IMG/VR virus record: IMGVR_UViG_3300025270_000010
Coordinates: 1,666-65,665 of that record
DNA from: a virus
Taxonomy: Duplodnaviria; Caudoviricetes
Length of the DNA: 64,000 bases
Reading direction: 5' to 3' (one strand)
Every line of letters starts with the position of its first letter. Within the stretch, counting starts at the first letter, position 1. The translations under genes and the position numbers were made by a program. This document shows, one piece after another, positions 1 through 15,200 of the stretch. Below the pieces are notes generated by a model, which was not told where the DNA came from, did not search any database, and saw nothing but the letters and a program-made list of their open reading frames with translations.

Positions 1-3
1 CTT

Positions 4-276: not shown

Positions 277-290
277 ATTAAGAAAAGCTG

Positions 291-319
291 TTGACAAACC
301 GCAACCCATCTGCTATACT
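291..319 (+). promoter_or_regulatory. sigma70-type promoter, leaderless
   Basis: TTGACA(291-296)-17 nt-TATACT(314-319), TG extended -10, A-rich tract upstream, ATG 6 nt after the -10. Confidence 0.9.
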
Positions 320-325
320 TCTACC

Positions 326-664: not shown

Positions 665-690
665 GCCCAGAAATAAATCAATAAAACATC

Positions 691-719
691 TTGACAAATC
701 AACCCCAACCTGCTTAGAT
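691..719 (+). promoter_or_regulatory. sigma70-type promoter, leaderless
   Basis: TTGACA(691-696)-17 nt-TTAGAT (weak -10) with TG extension, A-rich upstream tract, ATG at 726. Confidence 0.7.
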
Positions 720-725
720 ACCACC

Positions 726-1367: not shown

Positions 1368-1395
1368 CCCCAGAATTATTTACCCACTTACCATC

Positions 1396-1623
1396 ATGCC
1401 TGATTCCCACGACCCCACCCCGTATCTTGAGATCAAGACCGAGGAACTCGTCGCCGTGATCGACTCACTCGACCGCATCGTCGATGAACTCCAGACCGAG
1501 GGCGCTTACCTGAACGGTCTCGTGCCTGACCTTGAGGAGGCCACTCGCAAGTTGTCCGGCCTCTACAGTGAGGGCCTGTTGGCCGCTGTTCAGAGGGCCG
1601 TGCCTTTCAAGTTCAGAAAATAA
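1396..1623 (+). CDS. hypothetical acidic protein (75 aa)
   Basis: ATG1396 in the CCATCATG context; fills the gap between flanking genes. Confidence 0.7.
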   Translation: MPDSHDPTPYLEIKTEELVAVIDSLDRIVDELQTEGAYLNGLVPDLEEATRKLSGLYSEGLLAAVQRAVPFKFRK

Positions 1624-1636
1624 ATCAAGAAAACAT

Positions 1637-1665
1637 TTGACAACTTAACGTCTATCTGCTACACT
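1637..1665 (+). promoter_or_regulatory. sigma70-type promoter, leaderless
   Basis: TTGACA(1637-1642)-17 nt-TACACT(1660-1665), ATG1672 6 nt later. Confidence 0.9.
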
Positions 1666-1671
1666 ACTACC

Positions 1672-2874
1672 ATGCTCGAAACGCTACCATCACTCAGCTT
1701 CTCCCGAGTCGGAGAGGCCGCCACCTTCGCGGATCGCTCCGGCTCGGTCCTCGCAGTCGGTGGCCCCACCGGAAACGGCAAGTCCTCGTCCGGCAAGGAG
1801 GTTGCCAAGGAACTCGGCATCCCTGCTCAGTTCATCTCGTGGGCTGATGCCCGTGACCCGAACCACGAAGGCGGGATCGTCACCTTCAATTGTGCCGGAG
1901 TCCACGAGGAGACTGCCCGTGGCATCCAAGTCCCCCACCACGAGGGCAACGGTGACTACCGTTCGGTCAGCATCAAGCCCGAGGAGGCTCCGGTCTGGGA
2001 GACCGTGGGCGACAAGCCTATCCTCGTCATTCTGGAGGAGTGGCAGGCCGCGAGTGGTCAGATCAAGCAGGCATACCGTCCTGCTCTCTACGCACCGGAC
2101 GGTCAGGACAGATACATTGGGGTCCACCGTGTCGGTCCTAACGTGAGATTCATGATCACGTTTAACGGTCGCCTCGACGATGTCGAGAACGGGCGGGAAC
2201 TCTCTCAGCCTGACGCTGCACGGTGCAGCCAGTATCGGTTCGAGCTTTCGATTGGGGACTTCCTCAACCACACTGCCCCCACCTTCAAGGCCAGTCCTAT
2301 CTGGGCCTACCTGAATTTCTTCCGCCAAGGTGTAGAGACTCAGGGCGAGGGACTCAACCCGTGGACGGGCAAGATCAAGGGCGAGGACAAGCCGTCCCGC
2401 TACACTGGTGGGGCCGTGTGCTCTGGCCGGACATGGGAAGGCGTGATGAGGATGTTCCCCACTTGGGATTCCATTGCGGATACTGAAACCTTTTCCCTGC
2501 ACGCTGCATCCCGCATCCCCGCTCCCGTAGTTGAGGATATGGTCAGCCTGATCAAGACCGTGCTGGAGGTGGGGCCGGAGGTGACCGAGATCCGCGAGGG
2601 ACGCAAGTCCCTAGCCGATATCCCCCAGCACCAGCACCCCGCGCTGGCCTTCGCCGCCGCTCGCATCGCTCTGAACGAGGGCGGGAAGGACTACCCTGCT
2701 GCCATCAGTTCCGGCCAGTGGGACTGGGCCTTCGATCTCTTCGAGGGATGCAGCCCCGAGCTTGGTGCGTGGGTGTTCTCTACCCTCGCCGCTCACACTC
2801 AGCCCGAGGGAGACGGGGACAACCCCATCATGTTCCACGCCTCCGCCCAACGTCTCAAGGGACTGGTTTCCTAG
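1672..2874 (+). CDS. AAA+ ATPase (MoxR/CbbQ-like)
   Basis: Walker A GPTGNGKSS, Walker B-like ILVILEE, sensor N (ITFN), arginine-finger region DAARC; next to a vWA gene. Confidence 0.8.
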   Translation: MLETLPSLSFSRVGEAATFADRSGSVLAVGGPTGNGKSSSGKEVAKELGIPAQFISWADARDPNHEGGIVTFNCAGVHEETARGIQVPHHEGNGDYRSVSIKPEEAPVWETVGDKPILVILEEWQAASGQIKQAYRPALYAPDGQDRYIGVHRVGPNVRFMITFNGRLDDVENGRELSQPDAARCSQYRFELSIGDFLNHTAPTFKASPIWAYLNFFRQGVETQGEGLNPWTGKIKGEDKPSRYTGGAVCSGRTWEGVMRMFPTWDSIADTETFSLHAASRIPAPVVEDMVSLIKTVLEVGPEVTEIREGRKSLADIPQHQHPALAFAAARIALNEGGKDYPAAISSGQWDWAFDLFEGCSPELGAWVFSTLAAHTQPEGDGDNPIMFHASAQRLKGLVS

Positions 2875-2899
2875 CCCTAGAAATAAATTAAGAAAAGTC

Positions 2900-2928
2900 T
2901 TTACAACTTACCAACCATCTGCTACACT
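2900..2928 (+). promoter_or_regulatory. sigma70-type promoter, leaderless
   Basis: TTTACA-17 nt-TACACT, ATG2935 6 nt later. Confidence 0.85.
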
Positions 2929-2934
2929 ACCACC

Positions 2935-3873
2935 ATGCTCGAAATCAAATCTTCCTCCCTCCGCTCCCTCATAGAAATCTGCCTCGGCACCCCGAGCTAT
3001 GTCATCTGTGGGACCAACGCCAACGCCAAGAAAGTCCTCCTCGATCAGGTCTCCCCTGAAGAGAGGGCCGGACTGAAGCGCCTCCTCGGAGCCAGCACCC
3101 GCTTCCTCCCTGCCACCGACACTGCCATTGGCAACGCTCGGTCCTTCGTCAACCAGTTCAAGAAGGACATTGTGGCGGGTGACCCTAAGCGGGGCTACCG
3201 TGGGCTGGCCAAGACTGGTCGCCCGAACACCTACCTCTGCCGAGTGCAGGACTTCGACAGGTTCGAGGAGATCTTCAGATCCTACAAGCCGCGCATCGAC
3301 AAGTGCAACGATACTATCCGCGACCAGTGGGAGTCCCTCAAGGAGAGGGGCAAGGAGGAGATGCTCGTGTTCGGGGAGGGCTATGAATACCCCACCGTGG
3401 ATCGCTTCCTCCGCCGCTCCGAACTGAGCTTCGAGATCGAGACCACTATCTCGAATAGTAAAATCTTCGATACCGTGCTGGCCGAGACGGTCCAACGGAT
3501 CAAGGCCAAGGCCGAGGAGTCCGCCAAGAACAAGGTGCTCGCCGCTCACGCCAAGCCAGCCGAGGCTCTGCTCAGTGCCTTGGGAGTGTGCATCACGAGG
3601 CTCATCTCCGCTGACGGGAAGACCGAGGACGGGAAGAAGAGAAGGCTCCGCCCCGAGAAGTTCAGGGCTGTTGAGAAGCTCGTCGCCGAGGTCCGGTGCA
3701 AGAACTTCCTCGACCTCCCCGAACTGGAGACCGCCGCCTCCACTGCTGCCAGCCTCGTCGAGGGACTCGACGTTGTCGGTCTCGACCCCGCCGAGCGCAA
3801 GGAGAAGGCCGAGGAGTTCACCAAGGTGACCTCCGCCATCGAGGACAAGCTCGCCGCGAGTGGGCTGGCCTAA
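2935..3873 (+). CDS. DUF3150-like helical protein
   Basis: 312 aa with a YEYPTVDRFLRRSELSF segment resembling DUF3150; lies between an AAA+ ATPase and a vWA-peptidase, the usual neighbourhood of that family. Confidence 0.6.
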   Translation: MLEIKSSSLRSLIEICLGTPSYVICGTNANAKKVLLDQVSPEERAGLKRLLGASTRFLPATDTAIGNARSFVNQFKKDIVAGDPKRGYRGLAKTGRPNTYLCRVQDFDRFEEIFRSYKPRIDKCNDTIRDQWESLKERGKEEMLVFGEGYEYPTVDRFLRRSELSFEIETTISNSKIFDTVLAETVQRIKAKAEESAKNKVLAAHAKPAEALLSALGVCITRLISADGKTEDGKKRRLRPEKFRAVEKLVAEVRCKNFLDLPELETAASTAASLVEGLDVVGLDPAERKEKAEEFTKVTSAIEDKLAASGLA

Positions 3874-3892
3874 AAAAACTTTAAGAAAATAC

Positions 3893-3921
3893 TTTACAAA
3901 TCACCAACCATCTGCTACACT
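3893..3921 (+). promoter_or_regulatory. sigma70-type promoter, leaderless
   Basis: TTTACA-17 nt-TACACT, ATG3928 6 nt later. Confidence 0.85.
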
Positions 3922-3927
3922 ACCATC

Positions 3928-5481
3928 ATGCCCACCACTTCACCATTCATCGACCTTCGCCCAAGGGGAACCACTCCCCTTGAGGTCGGAGTCCGAGACG
4001 GCCACCGCTGGTGTGGGTTCCTTTTCCGAGCGGCCCTGCGAGGTCTCAAGCTGGATCTCAACTGCGACTACGGTCAGACTGACGGTCGCCATGGCTTCTA
4101 TAACGAACCCGTCCTGAACAAACTGACCCCCGCCAAGGCCGCCTACGTAGTCGGTCACGAGTGTGGTCACATCTCGCTGAACCACATCGAGAGGTTCGCC
4201 CGATATAAGGGAGCTAAGATTTTCTGGAATGGCAAGGTCTGGTCCGCCGCCAACGTGGCGAGCGATGTGATCATCAACCCGTGGCTCCGCGAACTCAACG
4301 AGGGCGCTCGTCAGGAGATGATCAACGCCGGACTCACTCCCTACGATGTGATGGTTCCACTCGGTGACATCCTCATCGACATCCCTGAACTCTACGATAC
4401 GCGGGACAAAATCCTCTGCCCTAACACGGGCCTCTGGATAACCAACCCGAACAAGGAAGACCTGTCCTCCGAGCAACTCATCGAGAAGATCCTCAAGACT
4501 CACCCCGTCCCCCCGATCAACGTCGGTGGTGGTAGTGGTGGCGACGAGGAGCAGTCCGACGAGGAAGGCGAAGAGGCTGGTGGCTCCGGCTCCGGCACCC
4601 CGAACCCTGACTCCGGCGACGAGGCTGATGAGCAGGGCGGCGGTGGCTCCGGCTCCGGCGACGATACTTTTGACGGTGATTCTTCGGGCAATGGTGAAGC
4701 CTCGTCCTCTGACGAAAGTGCAGGGGGCGGGGCAACCGTCGGAGAGTTCGGTGGAGGTCACGATGATTTCCGTGAGCCTGAGCTGGAGGACGGCGAGACC
4801 CTTGAGGAATTCCACGAGGCCAACCGTGCCGAGGCCAAGCAGGCTGTCTACGAGGACCGTGTCAACGAGGCCAAGGGACTCGGAGGTGGCGAAGGCCAGT
4901 TCGCATCAAGCGACCTGAACCGAACCACGAACCGTGTCCCGTGGACCGAGCACCTTGCCAACTGGTTTCAGACCCGCTCCGAGGAGGGGTTGGACCGCCC
5001 GTTCTGCCACCGCGCCTTCGACCGCAACGGTATCGTCCGCCGCGCTCGTGGGTCCAAGGTCGCAGGGGAGCTTGTGTTCCTCGTCGATACCTCCGGCTCC
5101 AACGTGGACAAGATGGGTCCAATGCTCGACAAGGTGCAGGAGGTGCTCGACCAGTTCCAGCCCCGCCTCACCCACGTTGTGCCAGTGGACCGGACAGTCC
5201 ACGAGACCTATGAGGTGGACGCTGGTGGGCAGCTCCCCGATACCCTCGGCGGTGGCGGCGGCACTCTCTTCAAGCCAGCCTTCGACTGGGCCGAGGAGAA
5301 CGCACCCAACGCGGACGGGATCATCTACCTGACTGACGGCTACACTTGGGAGCACGATTGGAACGCACTGGTCGAACCCAACTGCCCCGTGCTGTGGCTC
5401 TGCTTCGGCTACCACTCCCCCGAGGACATCGGTGTTACCTGCTACCACTTCGGGGAGCGGGTTGCCATCAACGTAGGATAA
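3928..5481 (+). CDS. DUF2201-like metallopeptidase + vWA domain protein
   Basis: HECGH (HExxH), A.D..IN motif, acidic Gly/Ser linker, complete MIDAS (DTSGS, GGGT, LTDG). Confidence 0.85.
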   Translation: MPTTSPFIDLRPRGTTPLEVGVRDGHRWCGFLFRAALRGLKLDLNCDYGQTDGRHGFYNEPVLNKLTPAKAAYVVGHECGHISLNHIERFARYKGAKIFWNGKVWSAANVASDVIINPWLRELNEGARQEMINAGLTPYDVMVPLGDILIDIPELYDTRDKILCPNTGLWITNPNKEDLSSEQLIEKILKTHPVPPINVGGGSGGDEEQSDEEGEEAGGSGSGTPNPDSGDEADEQGGGGSGSGDDTFDGDSSGNGEASSSDESAGGGATVGEFGGGHDDFREPELEDGETLEEFHEANRAEAKQAVYEDRVNEAKGLGGGEGQFASSDLNRTTNRVPWTEHLANWFQTRSEEGLDRPFCHRAFDRNGIVRRARGSKVAGELVFLVDTSGSNVDKMGPMLDKVQEVLDQFQPRLTHVVPVDRTVHETYEVDAGGQLPDTLGGGGGTLFKPAFDWAEENAPNADGIIYLTDGYTWEHDWNALVEPNCPVLWLCFGYHSPEDIGVTCYHFGERVAINVG

Positions 5482-5487
5482 CCTGCC

Positions 5488-5673
5488 ATGAAAACAATCC
5501 AACTCTCCCTCTCCGACGCGGCCTTCCGCAAGATCAAGAATGAAGTCTTTTGCGCCGTGCTAAGTCAGAATGCCTCCGGCCCTCACGCCGCATGGAAACT
5601 GGTGCTCGACGCAATGGAGCGCGGAGACACTGAGAAGTTAATTGAAACAAGAGAGGAAAAAGAAAACGCATGA
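5488..5673 (+). CDS. hypothetical protein
   Basis: 61-aa ORF tightly packed after the vWA gene; ATGA overlap with the next gene. Confidence 0.65.
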   Translation: MKTIQLSLSDAAFRKIKNEVFCAVLSQNASGPHAAWKLVLDAMERGDTEKLIETREEKENA

Positions 5674-5987
5674 GAGATTTAATTCAGACAATGTGGCTGC
5701 GACTGTTCGTGTTAGCAGCAGGCAAGATGGGCTTCCGGCTCATCTCCCCCTACGAGAAGGACATGGTTGTCCATGTTGCCATCTCCGAGTCCGCCCTGCT
5801 CTCCTCCATGCGCGACTACATCGCCGAGTATGAGGTGGACATGGAGCAACGTAGAAAGAAAGCATTCGCTGAAGCGGAGACTGTGATCCTGTCTGCCGAG
5901 GAGGAAGAGGAAGAAGAGAAGTGGACGAAGGAAGACTGGGAAGACTGGAGAGCCGACGACCACATCAACGATGGGGAGAAGGCTTAA
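5670..5987 (+). CDS. hypothetical acidic protein
   Basis: 105-aa ORF, translationally coupled to the previous gene. Confidence 0.7.
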   Translation: MRDLIQTMWLRLFVLAAGKMGFRLISPYEKDMVVHVAISESALLSSMRDYIAEYEVDMEQRRKKAFAEAETVILSAEEEEEEEKWTKEDWEDWRADDHINDGEKA

Positions 5988-5989
5988 CC

Positions 5990-6049
5990 CAAAAATAAAA
6001 TCTCCACTTAACGCCCGCCTAATTTATTTGCAGAAAGTTGTTGACTAAA
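5990..6049 (+). repeat. ~60-bp promoter-containing direct repeat, copy 1 (copy 2 at 7694-7753)
   Basis: CAAAAATAAAATCTCCACTTAACGCCCGC(C/T)TAATTTATTTGCAGAAAGTTGTTGACTAAA is present twice with one mismatch. Confidence 0.9.
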
Positions 6050-6069
6050 TCCTTCCCTTGTGTTATAGT
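6041..6069 (+). promoter_or_regulatory. sigma70-type promoter
   Basis: TTGACT-17 nt-TATAGT, ATG6079 9 nt later. Confidence 0.8.
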
Positions 6070-6078
6070 ATCCCCACG

Positions 6079-6312
6079 ATGAAAGCAAAACAAATCACCG
6101 TCTCCCTGTCCATCGTCTCTCGTGCGAGCGACCGCGCCACCTACCGCTTCCTGCGCCTCGATTTCGAGCCCGACAAGGTTACTGGCAAGATCAAGGCACC
6201 TTCGGGACGGGAGCTTTCCCGCAAGATCGAGAAGCGGGTGGGAGATATTCTGGAGAGTGCTGAAGTCAAGGAACTGAATACCTACAGGGAGAACACCGTC
6301 ACCATTCGATAG
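6079..6312 (+). CDS. hypothetical basic protein (77 aa)
   Basis: ATG6079 follows the promoter. Confidence 0.7.
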   Translation: MKAKQITVSLSIVSRASDRATYRFLRLDFEPDKVTGKIKAPSGRELSRKIEKRVGDILESAEVKELNTYRENTVTIR

Positions 6313-6314
6313 CT

Positions 6315-6512
6315 ATGCCGAGCATCCACCAAAGCATCACCGACCTCTTCGAGGCTGCCCGTCCCAAGGGACCGAGGCCCGAGGTAGTTGCCCGAGTCCT
6401 ACAAGACATCAAGGACTCCCTTCACGATGGACCGCGAGACTACGCTGACTTCGACGCCCATCAAATCGCAAAAGAAATCGACGAACTGGAAAGAGAAAAC
6501 CATGAGGTCTAA
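6315..6512 (+). CDS. hypothetical protein
   Basis: 65-aa ORF in a packed array. Confidence 0.65.
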   Translation: MPSIHQSITDLFEAARPKGPRPEVVARVLQDIKDSLHDGPRDYADFDAHQIAKEIDELERENHEV

Positions 6513-6723
6513 AGAAATAGAACTACAAGTAGCAACCGTCCGCATGGCGCTGGATGACAACTCACCATTCAAGGGGATGATAGACTTGCGGAGCCTTGAG
6601 AACCTGCCTGTTGAAGATGCCCGTGAAGTATGGGAAGCAATGGGGGAGGAGCTACAAGAAAAGTTTAACGCCACTTACCGCCGTGAAGATCAAACGCAAA
6701 CCACTCCCGACGACCTCCCTTGA
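6502..6723 (+). CDS. hypothetical protein (73 aa)
   Basis: ATG6502 overlaps the end of the previous gene. Confidence 0.6.
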   Translation: MRSKEIELQVATVRMALDDNSPFKGMIDLRSLENLPVEDAREVWEAMGEELQEKFNATYRREDQTQTTPDDLP

Positions 6724-6733
6724 GAAGAGGAAC

Positions 6734-6835
6734 ATGGCCCGTCACGCCATGCCCCCTCCAACCTCACGCCACCGAGACCAGAAGAAACATGCGCGGAAGA
6801 CCGCGTGTCGCAAACCAACCAACAACCAATCCTGA
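6734..6835 (+). CDS. small basic peptide (33 aa)
   Basis: MARHAMPP...KKHARKTACRK fills the gap; the next ATG follows 2 nt after its stop. Confidence 0.4.
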   Translation: MARHAMPPPTSRHRDQKKHARKTACRKPTNNQS

Positions 6836-6837
6836 TC

Positions 6838-7302
6838 ATGCAGTTCCAACCCGAGTTCCTTTCCATCAGCATCACCCTCGACCTTCGCGCCCACACGGAC
6901 GCGAGTGTATCGGACATAATCTCTGACAATATGTTAGCGGCTGTCAAGGATGCGGGGTTCTGTATGCATGACGAAAAGTTTCAGGAGTCCGAGCGCGGCA
7001 CTGTGAACTTCGACCTGATCGTCCGCCCTGATCGGTGTGACGTTGAGGGCTGCGACTGTGCCTCCCCCCGTGGCGAGCGATACGTCTCGGCGCAAGACGT
7101 TGTAGACCTGACCCACTCCATCGGCAACGTCGAGGAGGTGACCTACTTTGAGGTCTCGGCTACCAGCAAGCTGCTTGAAGCTGATCGCAGGGGCAACTCT
7201 GTCCAAGTGGACGAGAGGTGGTGGGAAGATTTCAAGGGCCTGAACATCTGCCTCAAGGAGGACGATGAGGGTAACGAGAAAAAGGAACTTCTACTTAACT
7301 GA
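6838..7302 (+). CDS. hypothetical protein (154 aa)
   Basis: Acidic ORF with a CDVEGCDC segment. Confidence 0.7.
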   Translation: MQFQPEFLSISITLDLRAHTDASVSDIISDNMLAAVKDAGFCMHDEKFQESERGTVNFDLIVRPDRCDVEGCDCASPRGERYVSAQDVVDLTHSIGNVEEVTYFEVSATSKLLEADRRGNSVQVDERWWEDFKGLNICLKEDDEGNEKKELLLN

Positions 7303-7305
7303 TCC

Positions 7306-7398
7306 ATGTCAACGGCAACCCTCTTCCTGATCCTTGTCCCCCTCACCCTACTGATTATCCTCCGGCGGAAACGCACAGAAACTACCAAGAACCAATGA
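7306..7398 (+). CDS. small single-pass membrane peptide (30 aa)
   Basis: MSTATLFLILVPLTLLIILRRKRTETTKNQ; ATGA overlap with the next gene. Confidence 0.55.
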   Translation: MSTATLFLILVPLTLLIILRRKRTETTKNQ

Positions 7399-7691
7399 AC
7401 GAATTCAGAACAGATACTGGCCGCATCGATGCAACCAAGTTAACTATGGAAGATGTGGTGGATATCATCAACATCTTCAAACCACACATCGATGTCTTCA
7501 TGGGGACGCGTAAGGATGTGATGGCACACATCGAGAAAGTGGACGGTCGCTTCTCGGACGCGTGTCCTTCACATATGGAAGGCCCAGTTAACTATCAACT
7601 CTCTTGCGAACTCAATGCTGAAGAACCAGCAAACCTGAACGGCCCCACAATCCAGTTGAATCTGGAGTGTGTGAACTGGGGCCATGAGTAA
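7395..7691 (+). CDS. hypothetical protein
   Basis: 98-aa ORF in the early array. Confidence 0.65.
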   Translation: MNEFRTDTGRIDATKLTMEDVVDIINIFKPHIDVFMGTRKDVMAHIEKVDGRFSDACPSHMEGPVNYQLSCELNAEEPANLNGPTIQLNLECVNWGHE

Positions 7692-7693
7692 CT

Positions 7694-7753
7694 CAAAAAT
7701 AAAATCTCCACTTAACGCCCGCTTAATTTATTTGCAGAAAGTTGTTGACTAAA
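7694..7753 (+). repeat. ~60-bp promoter-containing direct repeat, copy 2
   Basis: Near-identical to 5990-6049. Confidence 0.9.
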
Positions 7754-7773
7754 CTCTACCCATAGAATATACT
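7745..7773 (+). promoter_or_regulatory. sigma70-type promoter, leaderless
   Basis: TTGACT-17 nt-TATACT, ATG7780 6 nt later. Confidence 0.9.
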
Positions 7774-7779
7774 ACCCAC

Positions 7780-8760
7780 ATGACTAAGATATCTTCCCTC
7801 CGCTCCCTCTTTGAAAACACTCAAGCTGGTCTCGATCTCCTCATGGAAATGACCGACGACCAACTGGACAACCGCGAGAAGGTCGCCGAACTGACCTCCG
7901 CCCTACTACAGGAGCGCGAGTCCGCCGACGAACTTGTTGCCGGACTCCGTGAGGTTCACATCGGGTCAGGCCCGAGGGGGATGGGCTACAAGGGAAAGAA
8001 GGCACACCTTGAAGCGTTGCTCGATGAGTTCGCCGAGGCTCGCGACGAAGCGGCGGCCATGCTGGCGAAGGGTGGGGATGCCCGTGCCGAGGCCCGTGTC
8101 GCCAGTGCCGTCGAGGACATCGTGCCTCCCTCGGAAGAGGAAGAGGAAGAGGAAATCCCATCCCTCGCGGACCTCATTGCCGAGAACATCGACGGCTCTT
8201 TTACACCGGAGGACGAGACGCCTGACCCCACTAAGCGGGTGGCTTCACAGCACGACTCTGTTCGGGGGCTTGGTCTCCGCAAGAACGCGGTCAGGGCGCT
8301 TGAGCTGGCCAACATCTACAGCATCGGACAGTTGATCAGTCAAACCCCTGACTATCTTCTCAGCTTGCACCAGTTCGGAGCTGCCTCCATGGAGGATGTG
8401 CAGATAGGTCTCGACGCCCTCGACTTTGAGTGGCCCAACGGGCAGCTCTTCAGGGCGACTGGCGGAGCGGGTGAAACCCCTCTTGGCCGTCTCATCCGTG
8501 GTGACGACCTTTTCCAGACTGAGGAGGAGGAGAACCGCAAGGAGGAAGAGGAGGAGAACCGCAAGGAGGAAGAGGAGGAGAACCGCAAGGAGGAAGAGAA
8601 GCGCAAGGAGGTTCGCCGCCGCAATGCTGCTTACGCACGGGCCTATTATAGGAAGAACCGGAAGAAGATTCTGAAGCAGCAGTCAGTCTACAGGCGGCGG
8701 ACACGCGTTCGCATACAAGATCTGGAGGCCAAGGTGTCCGACGAAAGGGGGGGCCAGTAA
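7780..8760 (+). CDS. protein with RNA polymerase alpha-CTD-like domain and basic C-terminal helix
   Basis: VRGLGLRKNAVRALELANIYSIGQLISQTPDYLLSLHQFGAASMEDV aligns without gaps to the E. coli alpha-CTD (residues 257-303). Confidence 0.8.
   Translation: MTKISSLRSLFENTQAGLDLLMEMTDDQLDNREKVAELTSALLQERESADELVAGLREVHIGSGPRGMGYKGKKAHLEALLDEFAEARDEAAAMLAKGGDARAEARVASAVEDIVPPSEEEEEEEIPSLADLIAENIDGSFTPEDETPDPTKRVASQHDSVRGLGLRKNAVRALELANIYSIGQLISQTPDYLLSLHQFGAASMEDVQIGLDALDFEWPNGQLFRATGGAGETPLGRLIRGDDLFQTEEEENRKEEEEENRKEEEEENRKEEEKRKEVRRRNAAYARAYYRKNRKKILKQQSVYRRRTRVRIQDLEAKVSDERGGQ
8527..8598 (+). repeat. in-frame tandem repeat, 3 x 24 nt (EENRKEEE)
   Basis: GAGGAGAACCGCAAGGAGGAAGAG x3, exact copies. 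Confidence 0.95.
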
Positions 8761-8761
8761 C

Positions 8762-9166
8762 ATGTGGGTATTCACTAACAAAGGATTCTTCTCCATCGTG
8801 GAGGACCGGAACAATTCATACAACCTGCTCGTCCGTGCTCGGATGAAGGGCGACTTGGAGCGCGTCTTCGGTCAATTCCTCAAGCACTATGATCTTGAAG
8901 TTTCCGAGACCACCGACTCCGACTACCGATTCAGGGTCAGCCTCCCGAGGCACACGGTGGACAGCGTCATCTCCGCCGAGGTGGACGGCATCGACTACGA
9001 TAACTTCAAGAATAGTTATAGGGATAACGAGGAGATCCCTCAGACCATCCGGTCCCTCATGCACTACCACATGCACGATGCGTGGGAGGCAATGTGGAAG
9101 GCCCAGAAGAGTGGCCAGACTTACGAAGAGGCTGAAGTAGAAGTCCGTAAGCATTACAGCATCTAA
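8762..9166 (+). CDS. conserved phage hypothetical protein
   Basis: Motif series MWVFT..GF.SIV / LLVRAR / DY.FR / IDY.NFK, typical of a widespread family of unknown function. Confidence 0.75.
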   Translation: MWVFTNKGFFSIVEDRNNSYNLLVRARMKGDLERVFGQFLKHYDLEVSETTDSDYRFRVSLPRHTVDSVISAEVDGIDYDNFKNSYRDNEEIPQTIRSLMHYHMHDAWEAMWKAQKSGQTYEEAEVEVRKHYSI

Positions 9167-9388
9167 CAATTTAATCTTTGGGGTAGCTCCCCAACCGTGA
9201 GTGACTGAACATAGATTAGTCTAGAGTCTAAAAGTGTCTGTGTCTTGAGCGATGTCCAAATGGATGAGCAGAGAGAGCGGAGCGCGAAGTAGCCAAACTG
9301 ATACTTTATCTGGATGGCGAAAAGTTGAGGGTAATAAAAGCAATCCCTCCTCACACCAATTTCCCAAAACAAAAACCATAACAACACT

Positions 9389-9589
9389 ATGACTGACGGC
9401 GAATACACACTAACAGATTTCCGTAACCTGTCCGAGGAGCTTGTCGATCTTGCTGAAAAGATCCGAGGCCAACTCTTGAGCATGGAGCCGACAGGCTTCG
9501 ACCTGACCAAGGGCGATTACCTACGGTTCTTCAGTGGACTCGACTACGTCGGTGCCTCTCTCCCACAACTCGACGCGAAAGGACTGTAA
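9389..9589 (+). CDS. hypothetical protein
   Basis: 66-aa ORF after an A/C-rich leader. Confidence 0.65.
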   Translation: MTDGEYTLTDFRNLSEELVDLAEKIRGQLLSMEPTGFDLTKGDYLRFFSGLDYVGASLPQLDAKGL

Positions 9590-9590
9590 G

Positions 9591-9830
9591 ATGTCCTTGA
9601 TTAAAACCATTGGACAATCTGTTAGAAATGTGTATAATTTCTCCGTGAGTAAAATCATTGATGTGCATAAGTGGCTCCCGTCCCTCAAAAAGAAGGCGGC
9701 CCTGCTCCTCATCGACGAGGAACTCGACAACCTGAAGATCCGCGTAACCGAGATACACATCAGCCCCGTCTTTAAGGATGACCTCCATCGGAGGATCAAG
9801 GCCATCCGTTACCTGCTCAAGAAACTATAA
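9591..9830 (+). CDS. hypothetical protein (79 aa)
   Basis: ATG 1 nt after the upstream stop. Confidence 0.6.
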   Translation: MSLIKTIGQSVRNVYNFSVSKIIDVHKWLPSLKKKAALLLIDEELDNLKIRVTEIHISPVFKDDLHRRIKAIRYLLKKL

Positions 9831-9841
9831 CCCCCGAACCT

Positions 9842-10003
9842 ATGAACTCAGCGACCCTGACCATCAGCACCGACAACGAAACCCAAGCCCGTGAAATCTT
9901 GTCGGTCCTTCAGGAAGCCGAGGAGAGTGGGGAGTTGGATTTCTCGTTCGCTTGCCGGATCGGACAGGTCACCGAGAAGGTCGAATTCGACAACGCCCTT
10001 TAA
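9842..10003 (+). CDS. hypothetical acidic protein (53 aa)
   Basis: MNSATLTISTDNETQAREIL...FDNAL, read manually; below the track length cut-off. Confidence 0.55.
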   Translation: MNSATLTISTDNETQAREILSVLQEAEESGELDFSFACRIGQVTEKVEFDNAL

Positions 10004-10004
10004 C

Positions 10005-10115
10005 GTGAAAAAAGAATTAGCACTTTACGAGACGTTCACACTGGCGCTGTCCGCGTTCGTTGGAACACTGATCCTGATCCACGCGGGCCTAGCCTTGATC
10101 GAATTCCTTACGTAA
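10005..10115 (+). CDS. small membrane peptide (36 aa, GTG start)
   Basis: KKELALYETFTLALSAFVGTLILIHAGLALIEFLT; start 1 nt after the upstream stop. Confidence 0.45.
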   Translation: MKKELALYETFTLALSAFVGTLILIHAGLALIEFLT

Positions 10116-10221
10116 TCCTTTCGAGCCGCTCAGGCATGGTGTGCAGGGAGATCCTGCGACAGGTCAGCTAGTCCTAATGAAACACCTGAGTGGCTCCCCC
10201 CAAAAATATATCATAATGTCC

Positions 10222-10250
10222 TTGACCTAATCCAACCTATCGTGTATACT
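10222..10250 (+). promoter_or_regulatory. sigma70-type promoter
   Basis: TTGACC-17 nt-TATACT with TG extension, 14 nt to ATG10265. Confidence 0.85.
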
Positions 10251-10264
10251 AGCGCCACATTAAA

Positions 10265-11563
10265 ATGAGCAAGACCCTTTTCCCAAAGCAACTGGAAGCG
10301 TTCCGTTTCTTTTACAATCGTCTAACCGCTGGACTCAACACCCTCGACCAGTCCGACATGGGGACAGGCAAGACAGTGGTCGCTGTCAAGCTGGCAGCCG
10401 CCCTCGGCAAACCTATCGTGGTCATCTGCCCCAAGGCGGTCATCCCTGCTTGGAAGCAGGAGTTGGCCGAGGACAACATCACTGCAACCTTCATCCTGAA
10501 CCTTGAAGCCTTGCGGACTGGCAAGTCCGGCCACGTATCCAAGGTAGGCAAGAAGACATTCAAGTGGCTCCTCGACCCCAACACCCTTGTGTTCGTGGAC
10601 GAGATCCACAAGTGCAAGGGGCCGTTCACCCAGAACGCTGCCCTGCTGATCTCCCTCATCAAGCAGGGCTACCTGATCCATGGCATGTCCGGCACCAGTT
10701 GCGAAGACCCCACCGAGATGCGGCCCCTCGGCTTGATGCTTGGCCTCCACTCCGGCGACCAGAAGGCGGACGGCTTGAAGAGGTGGTGGCCGTGGATGCG
10801 GATGTTTGGCTGCGAGAAGAACGAGTGGGGTTCATGGGTTCTGGAAGATCCCTTCCACTTGCCACAACTTCGTCAGGAGATGTATTCCACCAGAGTTCAC
10901 CGACTCACAGTGGATGACTTCCCGACTTCCTTTAAGGAGAACCGTGTGTTCACGGTCCCGATCCAGTTCCGCGAGAACAAGAAAATTGTGAAGGCATACG
11001 AGAGTCTCGGCATCACCCCTCAGATCATCGAGGACTTCATCGAGAAGGGAACCGTGACCGACTCCGAGCATGTCCTCGCCAACATCACTGCAGCCCGACG
11101 ATTGGCCGAGGCGTTCAAGGTTGTGGATCTCGCTGAGATGGCGGAGGATCTCATGGCCAACGGTAAGTCGGTAGTTCTTTTCGTCAATTACAGCGACACG
11201 ATTGACGCCCTCCGGCTTCGCTTGAAGTGCGACCGGATCGACGGGCGGCAGGACGACGCTGACCGACAACGTGTGATCGAAGAGTTCCAACGGGACGAAA
11301 CCCATTGTGTGGCAGTCAACGCCGCCGCTGGTGGGACTGGCATCTCACTGCACGACACGCTTGGCAACCGCCCACGGGTGGCGCTGATCTCCCCGACCTT
11401 CAACTGCAAGACCTACAAGCAAGTGCTCGGTCGCATCCACCGCAACGGCGGGAAGAGTGACGCCCTCCAACAGGTGCTGGTCGCAACGGACTCCATCGAG
11501 GAGCATGTGATGCGAGCCATCGGTCGCCGCCTTTCCAACCTCAACGAACTGCACGGTGTATAA
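10265..11563 (+). CDS. superfamily 2 (SNF2-like) DNA helicase
   Basis: DMGTGKT (motif I), VDEIH (II), SGT (III), QVLGRIHRNG (VI). Confidence 0.9.
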   Translation: MSKTLFPKQLEAFRFFYNRLTAGLNTLDQSDMGTGKTVVAVKLAAALGKPIVVICPKAVIPAWKQELAEDNITATFILNLEALRTGKSGHVSKVGKKTFKWLLDPNTLVFVDEIHKCKGPFTQNAALLISLIKQGYLIHGMSGTSCEDPTEMRPLGLMLGLHSGDQKADGLKRWWPWMRMFGCEKNEWGSWVLEDPFHLPQLRQEMYSTRVHRLTVDDFPTSFKENRVFTVPIQFRENKKIVKAYESLGITPQIIEDFIEKGTVTDSEHVLANITAARRLAEAFKVVDLAEMAEDLMANGKSVVLFVNYSDTIDALRLRLKCDRIDGRQDDADRQRVIEEFQRDETHCVAVNAAAGGTGISLHDTLGNRPRVALISPTFNCKTYKQVLGRIHRNGGKSDALQQVLVATDSIEEHVMRAIGRRLSNLNELHGV

Positions 11564-11780
11564 ACATATCGTCCGCGAACTCTACCCGAACGGGATGCCC
11601 ATGCTGATTCAAGGGGAACTGCACCGTGGGGAATTTGAGGAGGGTCCAGTGGTTGACTCCTATACCTGCAAGATGTATCCGGTCATCGGGAACACGGTGC
11701 TCCCTGCTTCCCCCTCCCTCGACGCCAACTCTCAGCACAAGATCGCCCTCAGACTAACCGACCTTATCCGCAAAAATTAA
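11556..11780 (+). CDS. hypothetical protein
   Basis: 74-aa ORF overlapping the helicase stop. Confidence 0.55.
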   Translation: MYKHIVRELYPNGMPMLIQGELHRGEFEEGPVVDSYTCKMYPVIGNTVLPASPSLDANSQHKIALRLTDLIRKN

Positions 11781-11782
11781 AT

Positions 11783-12028
11783 ATGAGTAACCTAAAAAGA
11801 GACAACTGGACAAACGAAGAAATCCTTAACTTCCTTGAAGGCAGAGAAATTTATACTGATGGTCTGACCGGAGAGGCGAGGGAATTGCACCCAATGCATA
11901 CCCATGCGCTCAATGAAATCCGTGACCTCTTCGGGTCGTTCCAAATAGAATTAGACAGCTACCAAGCCCTAGCTTATGACACCGACACGAAGGAGATTGT
12001 CCATGTTGGCCCGATGCCCCCCCGTTAA
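11783..12028 (+). CDS. hypothetical protein
   Basis: 81-aa ORF, coupled to the previous gene. Confidence 0.65.
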   Translation: MSNLKRDNWTNEEILNFLEGREIYTDGLTGEARELHPMHTHALNEIRDLFGSFQIELDSYQALAYDTDTKEIVHVGPMPPR

Positions 12029-12067
12029 CCCCCCAACGTCTAACCGACATTATCCGCAAAAATTAAA

Positions 12068-12256
12068 ATGACATTATCTAAACTGCAAAGCCGCCAAGCC
12101 ACCGAGCACCAGAAACGTGCCGACGAAATCATCAAGAACGTAGCCAACCGCAAGTGGTCGAAGGACACCCTCGCCAAGAACCTCGACGCTCTCTACCTGA
12201 TGGGCATGAGGCACGGCTGGGAGGCTGCCAAGCTCGGCATCGAGGGCGAGGACTAA
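12068..12256 (+). CDS. hypothetical protein
   Basis: 62-aa ORF converging on the giant gene. Confidence 0.65.
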   Translation: MTLSKLQSRQATEHQKRADEIIKNVANRKWSKDTLAKNLDALYLMGMRHGWEAAKLGIEGED

Positions 12257-15200
12257 TCGTCCAGCTTCAGGAACCTTGGGTTCTCCGAGTGTTCATCCAT
12301 CAGCCACTTGAGTCTTTGCTGTCCTTGTGGTGTCTTCATCAGGGTCTCGACGAGGTCGGTGGTTGGGACCGGATTCTCCATGAACCCTGCGAAGAGTAGC
12401 TTGGATCTCCGCTCCCCGTATCGCGCCCCGCGTAGTTGCTGGTAGAGGTCGTAGTTGTTGACGCCGAGTCCGTTGAACCCGCGCATGGCCTGTGCCAGTT
12501 TGCTGTTGATCCTCATGCGGGACTTCCTGATGTCCCTGTGGATGCTCCTGACCTCGCCCTCACCCATGCCCTTGGTCTGCTTGAGCTTGTTGAACCTCTG
12601 CTGGACGCGCCGTTGCTCGTCCCTCAGTTGGTATACAACCCGAGAGAACTGGTCGGCTGGGTCATTTGAGCGGGGCCTTACCGGATAAAACTCACTCATA
12701 ATTATCCCGAACGGGGAGTCAGCGAACTTGTCCACCTCTCCTCCCGCTGCCTTCCACGCCTCGTGGAACTTCATCGGGGTCCGTGGGCCGTAAGCCTCCT
12801 TGCCGACGTAGCCCACCATCTTGGCCGTCTTCCGCCACAGCGGGTCCGACTCCTCGTAGATCGGCCTGCCCGATCTGGCGTCTCGGTTTTCCTTAACGTC
12901 GATGATAGATCCGGCAAGGATCTGATCCCCGAGGTATGGCTCAAGGAACGAGGCCGTGATGATCTTCTCGGCTGCGACCATCGGCTCGCCCCTCACGAGG
13001 TGCTCCATCCCACGGAGGAACGGGTCAGCAATCACGGCGAACGGGTTCAGGTAGGTGAGGTCGAACGTGGTGAGGTCTCCCTCTTCGCCCCCTGCCAAAG
13101 CTCGCGCCCCTGCTGCGACATTGACGCCCAGTATTTTCTTGTCCCCCCTGAAGTAATAGAAAGTATGATTTCTGAGATAAGGGGGAAGGGACATGCGGAA
13201 CGCCTCGTCCTCATCCTCGCCCATGTCGGACAGGAGTTTCTGAAGTAGAACAGGCATCGCGGTTGAGAACGCCGCCACCAACCCGAGGCCCGACATGCGC
13301 TGCCTACCACGAGACTTGATGACAGGGTTAGCGTCATGTATCTCCTTCCTTGCCAGCGTGAATGTGTTCACCGCGATTCGTGGAACCTCCGCCGTGAACC
13401 GGATGAACGGTGCGACGAGGAGTCCCCAACTGGACCCACTGATCTTCTTGATGACTGGGAGAGCACGGGCGTAGGACTGAGCGGTGGCCGAGATGATGTC
13501 GGCGGCGTGTTGCTTCCGCTGCATAGGGGACATGAGGGAATACTTCCGGTCCCCCTTCGGCATCCCCTTCTCAGCTTCGGCTGCTTTCTCGATGACCGCC
13601 AACTCGTGCTCGTAATATCCTATCTTGTAAAACGAGTCCATTGCGGACCCGAGGCGAGCGGCGGTATTCTGAATAGATTGTAACGCCTTAAACCCCTTGG
13701 CGGTCGCTGCCTTCTTGTTGAGTTTTTGTAGTTGGTCTTCAAGGGACACGAACGTCTCCTCGCCTTGCATCAGCTTGAGCATGATCTCGGACCTGACCTC
13801 GTCACCGAACACGCCGAGAGACTCAAGCTCGCGCAGGTATGCACTGCTACGGGCCGCGTTCCCTTTGAACGCCCTGCCCGTAGCCATGAGCGCGGACATG
13901 CCCGTCCCCTCGGTGGGGTTGCCGGAGACGAGGGACTTGCCTGCCCCCCAGTATCCTTGCGCGGGTCCAAAGAAGAGCACGTTACTGAGCATGTTGCGGA
14001 GGTAGAATCCTACCGAACCCAACGTCTTGGCAGCCATGGCGAAGCCCGTCGCCTTCTGGGCGTAGGTCATCGCGTTGTGCAGCGCCCGAGAGGACGCGTC
14101 GTTAGGCTCCCTGATGGTCTGCTGGAACATGGGCCGGATGTCTTCGTGAACGTCCCTGTCCACCCACATTCCGGCCAACGGGTTCAGCCCACTGTCAGCA
14201 CCGGAGGATATGATTTGCCTCATCGAACTGATGCGGTCGAACTCCTCCTTCGTCTTGGCATTCTTGAGGGCGTCTTCCTTCTGCTGGTGGGTCATAAGCC
14301 ACCCGCCAACTTCACCTTGCTGCCTCATCTTATTAAGGAATGACTGGTGGGCGGCGATCTTGGAGACCGTTCCCAGCGTGTAGAGCAACGAGTCTACGCT
14401 GTCCTCCGGCACGTTGTTTGCACCCATCAGGTCCGCGAGCGGCTTCGGGATCTCAGCCCTGCCCTCAAGATTCTTGGTCAGTGCCTTGAGAGAATCAGAC
14501 ATTCTGGCAGGGAGGGAGGCAGGCTTACCTGCCAAGTCGAACGCCGACGCGAAGTCCACTGGACCCGTTTCAGTTTCATACGACTGGAGAAAGTCTCTTG
14601 CCATCTGGTAGCCCAAGGACTGTCCGGCCTGTTCCCTGCTGTCGTATAGTGCTTCGGCGGCAGCACGGGCATCGGAGTCTGATCTGCCACTTGCTCTAAA
14701 CTTGTCATACTCAAACTTGATGAACTGGTCCCGCATGAAGTCGATGGCCGTGTCCCTGATGGCCTTGTCGTTTGCAGACTCCGACGTAAGTATACGCTCG
14801 ACGTAGTCGGTGTCGGAGAACATGTGATACCTGCGCGTGACGTAAAGCCCCATATTGTTATCGAACTTAACGCTCAGGTCTTTCGCGGAGAACACCCCGA
14901 ACAACTTCTTGGCTTCCTTGGACAACTCATCTGTCAGCCTGCGGAGGTCGAGCAGGACGGGGAACAGGTTGGGGGCGGTGGCCCGTAGCCTGTCGAACGC
15001 CTCGTTCCTGTCCTTGATCATGTCCGCCTTCTTCGTCTCAAACGACTTGTCCTTGGCGGCTTCATATTTTTGCTGGGCCGCTTCGTCGGCGGCTCCCTTG
15101 GTAGTCCCGAGCGCGTCCTTCGTCGCTCTTTGTTTCGCCCTGCGAGCGTCTGCCGCTGCCCTGTATAGCGGCTTGCGCTTGTCTAGGTCTGGTTCGGCGG

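What the first reader, a model, noticed from the sequence alone, without database searches (positions are those of the whole stretch)
7780..8760. Phage RNA-polymerase alpha-CTD mimic lacking the UP-element-binding residues
Seen: residues encoded at ~8254-8428 align gaplessly with E. coli alpha 257-303 (13/47 identical by hand; hydrophobic core, G279, G296 and S299 kept). R265 is N, N268 is R, and K297/K298 are AA. The domain is fused to an acidic linker, an EENRK repeat and a very basic C-terminal helix. Known: R265, N268 and K298 contact UP-element DNA, while other alpha-CTD surfaces bind activators and NusA. Inference: a decoy that titrates host activators or NusA, or a synthetic activator whose basic helix supplies DNA binding. 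The phage's own early promoters have strong A-tract UP elements.
Basis: partly seen in the sequence, partly recalled or inferred. Interest (0 to 1): 0.8.

Follow-up and report, generated by a model that had tools for sequence, protein, structure and literature searches.

The report
Phage protein with DNA-blind alpha-CTD copy
An uncultured 65-kb phage makes an early protein containing a real but divergent copy of the tail domain of the bacterial RNA polymerase alpha subunit. The copy has lost the residues that domain normally uses to grip promoter DNA, so the protein probably meddles with host transcription, though nothing about its function has been tested.

Summary
ORF 7780-8760 (+) encodes a 326-aa protein. 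Residues about 153-219 are a genuine RNA polymerase alpha-CTD-like domain:
- Pfam PF03118 matches all 19 homologues (best E 2.4e-9).
- A family profile finds only RpoA chains in the PDB.
- A domain-only AlphaFold model (pLDDT 83) superposes on solved alpha-CTDs at 0.8-1.3 Å.

The hand alignment is exact (13/47 identities). R265->N, N268->R and K297K298->AA are confirmed. No family member has Arg/Lys at the 265 position, against 82% of 421 other alpha-CTD-like domains.

The domain lies between a conserved N-terminal helical domain and a conserved, very basic C-terminal helix (+15 over 37 aa), joined by variable acidic linkers. The EENRK repeat is only a recent 24-bp x3 tandem duplication.

The gene has its own conserved, leaderless sigma70-type promoter in the early region.

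The family is tiny (about 6 clusters at 50% identity) and restricted to one phage lineage. Alpha-CTD-like domains on phage contigs are not unique, though: Bacillus phage Goe8 gp005, small phage-contig proteins, and other notes of this scan on other DNA.

The decoy/activator reading is plausible but untested. I rate this a new variant of a known kind, of moderate interest.

The parts
7709..7773 (+). The gene's own promoter. It has a conserved AT-rich upstream element (7709-7741, shared with the promoter at 6041), -35 TTGACT (7745-7750), a 17-nt spacer and -10 TATACT (7768-7773). The ATG lies 6 nt after the -10, implying a leaderless mRNA.
   Evidence: Promoter scan: 12 sites against 3.5 expected in 1-12300. 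Aligned promoters. The upstream element occurs exactly twice in the window, 0 expected. The same design is conserved upstream of the homologues in L003, L006, L007 and L008. Transcription itself was not tested.
7780..8760 (+). CDS of the 326-aa alpha-CTD-like protein (P0001), stop codon included.
   Evidence: ORF list and translation. There are 18 homologues at 37-98% identity, all starting at the same Met.
7780..8070 (+). N-terminal conserved helical domain, residues 1-97. It has three helices (7-23, 26-63, 70-96). The hairpin tip is the most conserved part (R57, H60, G67, G69, K71, H76, L77 invariant).
   Evidence: Alignment A1. AF2 full-length model, pLDDT 63-83 here. No Pfam, PHROG or PDB sequence match. 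Only generic helical-bundle look-alikes in the atlas.
8071..8235 (+). Acidic linker 1, residues 98-152 (net charge -15). Its length and sequence vary among relatives.
   Evidence: Charge count. pLDDT below 50. Large indels in A1, including a ~100-aa insertion in P0009.
8236..8436 (+). Alpha-CTD-like (HhH)2 domain, residues 153-219. It aligns with E. coli alpha ~249-311 (V161 = V257). The DNA-contact residues R265, N268, K297 and K298 are replaced by N, R, A and A. G296 and S299 are kept. The stretch 'QTPDYLLSL' (alpha 284-292) is nearly invariant.
   Evidence: Pfam PF03118. PDB profile search. BLASTP. Domain model pLDDT 83 and Foldseek rmsd 0.8-1.3 Å to alpha-CTDs. Column counts.
8437..8592 (+). 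Variable linker 2, residues 220-271 (net -9), containing the EENRK repeat.
   Evidence: Almost absent from the more distant relatives. Low pLDDT at 218-246.
8524..8598 (+). Perfect 24-bp x3.1 tandem DNA repeat that encodes the (E)EENRKEE repeat.
   Evidence: Tandem Repeats Finder: 100% matches, score 150. The 98%-identical homologue P0002 has one unit fewer.
8593..8757 (+). Conserved basic C-terminal helix and tail, residues 272-326. The core 276-312 has 16 K/R and net charge +15. The motif is A-Y-A-R-A-Y-Y-R-K-N-R-K-K-I-L-K-Q-Q, followed by L-x-x-L-E and an N-E-G-G-x-Q end.
   Evidence: Alignment A1. AF2 helix 244-323 with pLDDT 86-92. Charge count and absence of a heptad register. Found only in this family.
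8762..9166 (+). Downstream 134-aa gene. It starts 1 nt after the stop codon and is always adjacent in relatives. Function unknown; possibly a partner.
   Evidence: Synteny in L003-L008. No significant Pfam or NCBIfam match. Atlas look-alikes are phage hypotheticals.

Best explanation
This is an early phage protein that most likely modulates host transcription.

**What is shown:**
- It carries a true alpha-CTD fold.
- In this whole family the fold has lost the Arg265-type DNA-contact side chains.
- The protein is modular: a conserved N-terminal helical domain, a long flexible acidic tether, the alpha-CTD-like domain, a variable linker, and a conserved, strongly basic helix.
- It is expressed from its own host-type (sigma70-like) leaderless promoter in the early region of a phage with no detectable RNA polymerase of its own.

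**What is inferred:**
- The alpha-CTD-like domain works as a protein-protein contact module. Its conserved helix-3 face 'QTPDYLLSL' lies where E. coli alpha has its activator-contact '287' patch.
- The basic helix supplies non-canonical nucleic-acid binding.
- The N-terminal domain anchors or oligomerises the protein. This repeats the 'anchor - flexible linker - CTD' logic of the alpha subunit itself.
- The net effect would be to occupy or bridge partners that the host's own alpha-CTD normally uses at promoters (sigma region 4, a neighbouring alpha-CTD, or activators). That would shift the host polymerase away from UP-element-dependent host and early phage promoters towards later phage genes.
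For: **Alpha-CTD homology and fold:**

**Family-wide loss of R265:** 0 of 22 family rows have R/K at that column, against 76% R and 82% R/K in 421 other domains.

**Conservation pattern:** three conserved modules separated by variable acidic linkers.

**Basic helix:** +15 over 37 aa, modelled with confidence.

**Expression context:**
- The gene has its own conserved sigma70-type leaderless promoter.
- Eight early promoters carry AT-rich UP-like tracts, 64-82% AT in a 55% GC genome.
- No T7-like or other RNA polymerase family was found in any large ORF.

**Established background (my knowledge):** alpha-CTD is the hub for UP-element, sigma-4 and activator contacts. Phages often target it, for example T4 Alt/ModA, phage G1 gp67 and phi29 p4.
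Against: - No interaction was tested and the host is unknown.
- Identity to RpoA alpha-CTDs is low (22-30%).
- The sigma-contact 261 determinant is not conserved, so mimicry of a particular host surface is unproven.
- HhH motifs can bind the DNA backbone through main-chain amides. G296 and S299 are kept, so DNA binding by the domain is not excluded.
- R167/K168 next to the 265 position are invariant in the 19 close members, although absent in P0021 and P0023.
- The N- and C-terminal modules have no recognisable relatives, so their roles are guesses.
- The giant 5052-aa ORF is unannotated and could hide a polymerase.
Confidence: 0.4

Rival explanations
1. General nucleic-acid-binding or architectural protein, unrelated to RNA polymerase. 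The (HhH)2 domain would bind the DNA backbone non-specifically and the basic helix would add affinity. The role would be in replication, recombination, genome protection or nucleoid remodelling.
For: - HhH hairpin glycines G183 and G200, and S203, are retained.
- The C-terminal helix has net charge +15.
- The gene lies upstream of an SNF2-type helicase in the early/DNA-metabolism region.
- Alpha-CTD-like domains occur in tandem arrays of 2-8 in many bacterial proteins that are clearly not RpoA.
Against: - The one residue most critical for alpha-CTD DNA binding, R265, is missing in every member.
- One distant member (P0023) even lacks G296.
- The domain itself is acidic (net -3) and the protein outside the helix is net -34.
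- The most conserved surface stretch lies in helix 3, away from the DNA face (inference from E. coli alpha).
Confidence: 0.25
2. Pure soluble decoy. The free alpha-CTD-like domain would titrate host proteins that dock on alpha-CTD (CRP/FNR-type activators, Spx/MarA-type factors, NusA) without touching DNA.
For: - The alpha-CTD fold is kept while the DNA-contact residues are lost.
- Early expression from a strong promoter.
Against: - A decoy needs to copy the host surface, but similarity to any RpoA is low and the known contact determinants are mostly changed.
- A decoy would not need the conserved N-terminal domain or the conserved basic helix.
- The NusA AR2-alpha-CTD contact is restricted to some proteobacteria (my knowledge), and the host is unknown.
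Confidence: 0.15
3. RNA-directed elongation or antitermination factor. The arginine-rich helix would bind nascent RNA, like the ARM of lambda N. The alpha-CTD-like domain would dock on an elongation factor or on the polymerase.
For: - The arginine-rich helix has no coiled-coil register.
- Alpha-CTD is a known NusA partner in E. coli (my knowledge).
Against: - No boxB-like RNA element was looked for or seen.
- Early genes each have their own promoter, and terminator-like sites are fewer than expected in 1-12300 (7 against 12.4), so there is little need for antitermination there.
- There is no sequence similarity to N or Q proteins.
Confidence: 0.08

Closest known systems
C-terminal domain of the bacterial RNA polymerase alpha subunit (RpoA alpha-CTD; Pfam PF03118; e.g. 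PDB 1LB2, 3K4G, 7VPD chain S)
   Same: - Same fold: model rmsd 0.8-1.3 Å over 55-62 residues.
- Same hydrophobic core, hairpin glycines G279/G296 and S299.
- Like RpoA, the domain hangs on a flexible linker after an N-terminal domain.
   Different: - No alpha-NTD. NCBIfam rpoA scores are 18-25 bits against cut-offs of 228-434, so it cannot assemble into core polymerase as an alpha subunit.
- R265, N268, K297 and K298 are replaced.
- The 261 determinant is not kept.
- It carries an extra basic C-terminal helix.
Bacillus phage vB_BmeM-Goe8 gp005 (YP_009849950.1, 210 aa, annotated 'RNA polymerase subunit alpha'), together with small alpha-CTD-like proteins on phage-like contigs (P0126, P0134)
   Same: These are phage-borne proteins that join an unknown N-terminal part to an alpha-CTD-like domain, encoded among small early-type genes. 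As far as I could find they are uncharacterised.
   Different: - They keep Arg at the 265 position (Goe8 'SIRSYNCL', P0126 'SSR', P0134 'RGR'), so they can plausibly bind DNA like alpha-CTD.
- Their N-terminal parts are unrelated.
- They have no basic C-terminal helix.
Non-RpoA bacterial proteins with PF03118 domains: tandem arrays of 2-8 domains, TPR + 2x alpha-CTD, sigma70 region 4 + alpha-CTD
   Same: They share the domain, and several score higher against the phage-family profile (45-94 bits) than RpoA chains in the PDB do (about 27 bits).
   Different: - Different architectures.
- 76% of their domain instances keep R265.
- Their functions are unknown.
Phage strategies that disable the alpha-CTD/UP-element contact: T4 Alt/ModA (ADP-ribosylation of alpha R265), phage G1 gp67 (binds sigma region 4 and blocks alpha-CTD at UP elements), LUZ19 Rac (alpha cleavage, PMC7552054)
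   Same: Possible functional analogy. An early phage product would interfere with alpha-CTD-dependent promoter use.
   Different: No sequence or fold relationship. Those proteins modify or block the host domain, whereas here the phage brings its own copy of it. The analogy is inference only.
TfoX/Sxy C-terminal HhH domain (PF04994), a CRP co-activator
   Same: A regulator that carries an HhH domain of the same superfamily as alpha-CTD, fused to a separate N-terminal domain (bioRxiv 10.1101/284836).
   Different: It is a different Pfam family. P0001 has no TfoX_C hit. TfoX-C is predicted to bind DNA.

Membership tests
RpoA (RNA polymerase alpha subunit) | N-terminal dimerisation/assembly domain (alpha-NTD; Pfam RNA_pol_L / RNA_pol_A_bac) and a full-length match to the rpoA equivalog models | tested here: not met
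   Pfam finds only PF03118. NCBIfam rpoA models match residues ~146-217 only, at 18-25 bits against cut-offs of 228-434. The N-terminal 97 residues are all-helical.
Alpha-CTD domain family (Pfam PF03118) | Profile match to PF03118 | tested here: met
   P0001 scores 22.2 bits (E 1.2e-4), just under the 23.8 gathering score. All 19 family members match, best E 2.4e-9. The family profile hits only RpoA chains in the PDB, best E 2.2e-5.
Alpha-CTD domain family (Pfam PF03118) | Compact four/five-helix (HhH)2 fold of alpha-CTD | tested here: met
   The domain-only AF2 model has pLDDT 83.3. The top ~50 Foldseek PDB matches are all alpha-CTDs: 7vpd_S rmsd 0.8 Å over 55 aa with TMt 0.91, and 1lb2_E rmsd 1.3 Å over 62 aa with TMt 0.84. 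This is a predicted structure, not a solved one.
UP-element-binding alpha-CTD (functional class) | The '265 determinant': R265, N268, (C269), G296, K298, S299 | tested here: not met
   R265->N, N268->R (variable in the family), C269->A and K298->A. G296 and S299 are kept. There are 0 of 22 family rows with R/K at column 265.
UP-element-binding alpha-CTD (functional class) | Binding to AT-rich upstream DNA | not testable with these tools
   Needs EMSA or footprinting.
bZIP-type basic-helix DNA binders | Basic region with an N-x7-R signature, followed by a leucine-zipper heptad repeat of at least 4 heptads | tested here: not met
   No bZIP family in the Pfam scan at E<=10. No heptad register is enriched in hydrophobic a/d positions (at most 6 of 13). 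The helix ends ~10 residues after L315.
Lambda-N-type arginine-rich-motif antiterminators | ARM that binds a boxB RNA hairpin, plus NusA/RNAP-binding segments | not tested
   Only the arginine-rich composition was seen. No RNA element was searched for.

The most novel reading that the evidence does not exclude
The phage carries a 'DNA-blind' paralogue of alpha-CTD that works by protein contacts alone. Tethered between an anchoring domain and a basic helix, it would take the place of the host's alpha-CTD at sigma region 4 or at activators, and so reprogramme the host polymerase's promoter choice. That would be the first described case of a virus copying this hub domain of RNA polymerase in order to compete with it. 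It would also offer a way into the large, unstudied set of phage alpha-CTD fusion proteins.
Probability: 0.3. Interest if true: 0.75.

Novelty: new variant of a known kind. Interest (0 to 1): 0.5.

Why it matters
Alpha-CTD is the contact point through which UP elements and most class I activators recruit bacterial RNA polymerase. Phages are known to modify, cleave or block it. I found no report that they encode copies of it, although databases and this scan show that such copies are common on phage contigs.

This family is the clearest case so far in which the copy has lost the DNA-reading residues but kept the fold under selection. That argues for a protein-contact role. It gives a simple, testable entry point (binding to holoenzyme, sigma-4 or activators; effect on UP-dependent promoters) into how these phage alpha-CTD proteins act.

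The practical limits are that the phage is uncultured, the host is unknown and the family is very small.

Tried and rejected
**Searches that found no relative or no lead**
- Known phages: megablast and tblastn against the INPHARED collection found nothing.
- PHROGs: no family for the protein or its relatives.
- N-terminal domain and C-terminal helix: no Pfam, PDB, PHROG or NCBIfam relatives. The atlas gave only generic helical bundles (FliT, PhoU). VIA-align gave only coiled coils with Z<7, which is uninformative for long helices. A word-index search with the C-terminal region returned only family members.
- Literature: six searches found no paper on phage-encoded alpha-CTD homologues.

**Models and readings set aside**
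- The full-length AF2 model was too poor in the alpha-CTD region (pLDDT 50-72; Foldseek rmsd ~6 Å). I replaced it with a domain-only model.
- bZIP reading of the basic helix: rejected, because there is no heptad register and no Pfam hit.
- Alternative alpha subunit of a phage polymerase: rejected. There is no alpha-NTD, and no RNA polymerase family turned up in the ORFs scanned.
- T4-Alt-like scenario (virion ADP-ribosyltransferase acting on host R265, with the phage copy immune): not pursued. Pfam and PHROGs give no ART hit in the giant ORF.

**Host and taxonomy leads that failed**
- Host clue: no tRNAs and no relative in 185,579 GTDB species genomes. One homologue sits in a marine 'Gemmatimonadetes' MAG contig that looks like the same phage.
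- Cluster look-ups gave no taxonomy.

**A caution on 'phage' rpoA hits**
- Most 'phage' records that match full-length E. coli RpoA look like bacterial DNA in the collection, not phage genes.

Full report
**1. What is there**

The window is bases 1666-65665 of a 65,665-bp IMG/VR virus record rated complete. It has about 55% G+C.

ORF 7780-8760 on the + strand encodes a 326-aa protein, P0001. Immediately upstream is a sigma70-type promoter: TTGACT, 17 nt, TATACT at 7745-7773. The ATG follows only 6 nt after the -10 hexamer, so the mRNA would be leaderless.

The first 12.3 kb hold 12 such promoter-like sites against 3.5 expected. Eight of them share AT-rich tracts at -60..-38 (64-82% A+T) and the same fixed -10-to-ATG spacing.

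The promoter of this gene shares a 33-nt upstream element with the promoter at 6041. That is 2 matches where 0 are expected. The promoter and the leaderless design are conserved upstream of the homologous genes in related contigs.

Promoter activity was not tested.

**2. The alpha-CTD homology is real**

Sequence evidence:
- Pfam PF03118 (RNA_pol_A_CTD) matches residues 155-209 at E 1.2e-4. The score of 22.2 bits is just under the gathering score of 23.8.
- A word-index search of 5.8 billion proteins found 18 homologues of 37-98% identity. All 19 sequences match PF03118, best E 2.4e-9.
- A profile of the family finds only RpoA chains in the PDB, best E 2.2e-5, always over the same ~60 residues.
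- NCBIfam rpoA models hit the same stretch only, far below their full-length cut-offs.

Structure evidence:
- The full-length AlphaFold model was poor in this region.
- A domain-only model (residues 143-226, 31-sequence alignment A2) reached pLDDT 83.3, with the core above 90.
- Its best ~50 Foldseek matches in the PDB are all alpha-CTDs. Examples are 7vpd_S (rmsd 0.8 Å over 55 residues, TM 0.91 by target) and 1lb2_E (1.3 Å over 62, TM 0.84).
- E-values are only 4e-3 to 0.1 because the domain is short, but probability is 1.00 throughout.

**3. The residue claims**

I took E. coli rpoA from NC_000913. BLASTP aligns phage V161 with alpha V257 without a gap through alpha 304. A script confirms 13/47 identities for alpha 257-303. 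Only 0.35% of shuffles reach that.

| E. coli alpha | Phage protein |
|---|---|
| R265 | N169 |
| N268 | R172 |
| C269 | A173 |
| N294 | Q198 |
| G296 | G200 |
| K297, K298 | A201, A202 |
| S299 | S203 |
| G279 | G183 |

I built a domain HMM and aligned every domain instance among all proteins fetched.
- None of the 22 family rows has R or K at the 265 column (N 17, T 3, H 1, P 1).
- Of 421 domain instances from 151 non-family proteins, 76% have R and 82% have R/K there.
- N268 is kept in 49% of the non-family instances.
- K298 is kept in only 23%, so K298 is a poor marker outside RpoA.
- 48 of the 421 non-family instances (11%) also lack all four residues. The loss is therefore characteristic of this family but not unique to it.

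R167 and K168, just before the 265 position, are invariant in the 19 close members. They are absent in the distant members P0021 (P-H) and P0023 (S-K), and P0023 also has G296->A.

The sigma-contact 261 determinant is not kept: D258->R, D259->G, E261->G.

The best conserved surface-type stretch is Q188-T189-P190-D191-Y192-L-L-S195-L. It aligns with alpha 284-292, next to E. coli's activator-contact 287 patch. The link to that patch is my inference.

**4. The rest of the protein**

Alignment A1 shows three conserved modules separated by variable acidic linkers.

- **Residues 1-97.** These form three helices. The hairpin tip is the most conserved part (R57, H60, G67, G69, K71, H76, L77).
- **Linker 1 (98-152).** Net charge is -15 and the model is disordered there. 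Its length varies greatly among relatives.
- **Linker 2 (220-271).** This contains the EENRK repeat, a perfect 24-bp x3.1 tandem DNA repeat at 8524-8598. The 98%-identical P0002 has one unit fewer, and most relatives have no repeat at all. It is a slippage-prone spacer, not a functional motif.
- **The C-terminus (272-326).** This is a confidently modelled helix (pLDDT 86-92). Its core 276-312 has 16 K/R and net charge +15. No heptad register fits, so it is not an evident zipper. The motif A-Y-A-R-A-Y-Y-R-K-N-R-K-K-I-L is the best conserved part.

Neither terminal module has a detectable relative outside the family. Outside the basic helix the protein is strongly acidic (net -34).

**5. Distribution and context**

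An exhaustive profile search of 1.84 billion representatives found only about six full-length clusters: P0004, P0017, P0019, P0021 and P0023, plus the fragments P0022 and P0025.

IMG/VR holds two more loci, on 61.8-kb and 45.7-kb contigs. GTDB species genomes hold none.

In every related contig the gene sits in the same early block. It is followed within 1-2 nt by a 132-134-aa gene of unknown function, then small genes, an SNF2-type helicase, and a giant (>5000 aa) ORF on the other strand.

No RNA polymerase family was detected in the ORFs scanned. With the sigma70-type promoters, this suggests the phage relies on the host enzyme. The giant ORF is unannotated, however, and could hide one.

**6. 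Alpha-CTD-like domains elsewhere**

The remaining 575 or so significant hits share only the alpha-CTD-like region. They include tandem arrays of 2-8 domains, TPR plus two domains, and sigma70 region 4 plus the domain.

Two of the best-scoring single-domain hits lie on phage-like contigs. P0134 (94 aa) lies at the end of a long run of small genes, only one of them with a Pfam hit (DUF6011). P0126 (113 aa) lies next to GcrA, DUF1064 and an Sf6-type small terminase.

In cultured phages, Bacillus phage vB_BmeM-Goe8 gp005 (210 aa, annotated 'RNA polymerase subunit alpha') joins an unknown N-terminal part to an alpha-CTD-like domain that keeps R265 and N268.

Other 'phage' records matching full-length RpoA look like bacterial DNA.

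The scan's own index lists many further notes on phage alpha-CTD fusions on other DNA. These are unchecked AI notes, but they agree with what I saw.

Six literature searches found no study of phage-encoded alpha-CTD homologues. I found only work on phages that modify or cleave host alpha (e.g. PMC7552054), and a note that TfoX-C belongs to the same HhH superfamily (bioRxiv 10.1101/284836).

**7. How it most likely works**

Shown:
- a true alpha-CTD fold under selection
- family-wide loss of the Arg265-type DNA contacts
- an 'anchor - flexible tether - CTD' layout like that of alpha itself
- an added conserved basic helix
- early expression from a host-type promoter

Inferred: the domain acts through protein contacts, the basic helix binds nucleic acid, and the protein competes with or bridges partners of the host alpha-CTD at promoters. 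It would thereby shift polymerase use during infection. I give this 0.4.

Rivals:
- a general DNA/RNA-binding protein unrelated to RNA polymerase (0.25)
This is weakened by the low similarity to RpoA surfaces and by the two extra conserved modules.
- an RNA-directed elongation factor (0.08)

About 0.12 remains for something else.

**8. Verdict**

This is not an RpoA and not a UP-element binder by the canonical determinants. It is a new, very small family that places a known domain in a new architecture, within a broader and apparently unstudied class of phage alpha-CTD proteins.

Interest is moderate (0.5).

Noticed in passing
window 255-10265 (+), e.g. promoters at 291, 1637, 2900, 3893, 6041, 7745, 10222: This is an array of strong sigma70-type promoters: TTGACA, 17 nt, (TGn)TAYACT. 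Each has an AT-rich upstream tract, and the ATG follows 6 nt after the -10, so the early genes appear to be leaderless. The scan found 12 sites against 3.5 expected.
   Followed up: partly
window 6005-6037 and 7709-7741: A 33-nt element (CACTTAACGCCCGCYTAATTTATTTGCAGAAAG) sits upstream of two early promoters, with one mismatch between the copies. It also occurs upstream of the homologous gene in relatives L006, L007 and L008. It could be an operator or a UP element.
   Followed up: partly
window 12253-27411 (-): A giant 5052-aa ORF has no Pfam or PHROG match in either half. Relatives carry a 5288-aa version.
   Followed up: partly
window 8762-9166 (+): A 134-aa gene starts 1 nt after the stop of the alpha-CTD-like gene and is always adjacent in relatives. 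Atlas look-alikes are phage hypothetical proteins with no Pfam family.
   Followed up: partly
window 1672-5481 (+): Three early genes stand in a row, each with its own promoter: an ATPase (phrog_1297), an unknown 312-aa protein, and a DUF2201 metallopeptidase/VWA-like protein (PF13203 + PF09967).
   Followed up: no
window 48155-53542 (-): A 1795-aa protein carries three Laminin_G_3 (concanavalin-like lectin) domains. It is probably a tail fibre or adhesin.
   Followed up: no
NCBIfam NF033442 (BREX PglW), model positions ~795-851: Alpha-CTD-like domains of Goe8 gp005 (P0168) and P0126 match this stretch of the BREX kinase PglW model weakly (E 1e-3 to 3e-3). This hints that PglW contains a related HhH domain.
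   Followed up: no
INPHARED records OR851339.1, OR846589.1, OR844994.1, MT83xxxx and others: Several records filed as phages contain full-length bacterial rpoA at 42-100% identity to E. coli. They look like bacterial DNA or contamination in the phage collection.
   Followed up: no
L006 (GCA_002714465.1, PAXL01000063.1, 15.3 kb): A contig binned into a marine 'Gemmatimonadetes' MAG carries the same early gene block, including the giant ORF. It is most likely a phage contig in the bin rather than evidence for the host.
   Followed up: no
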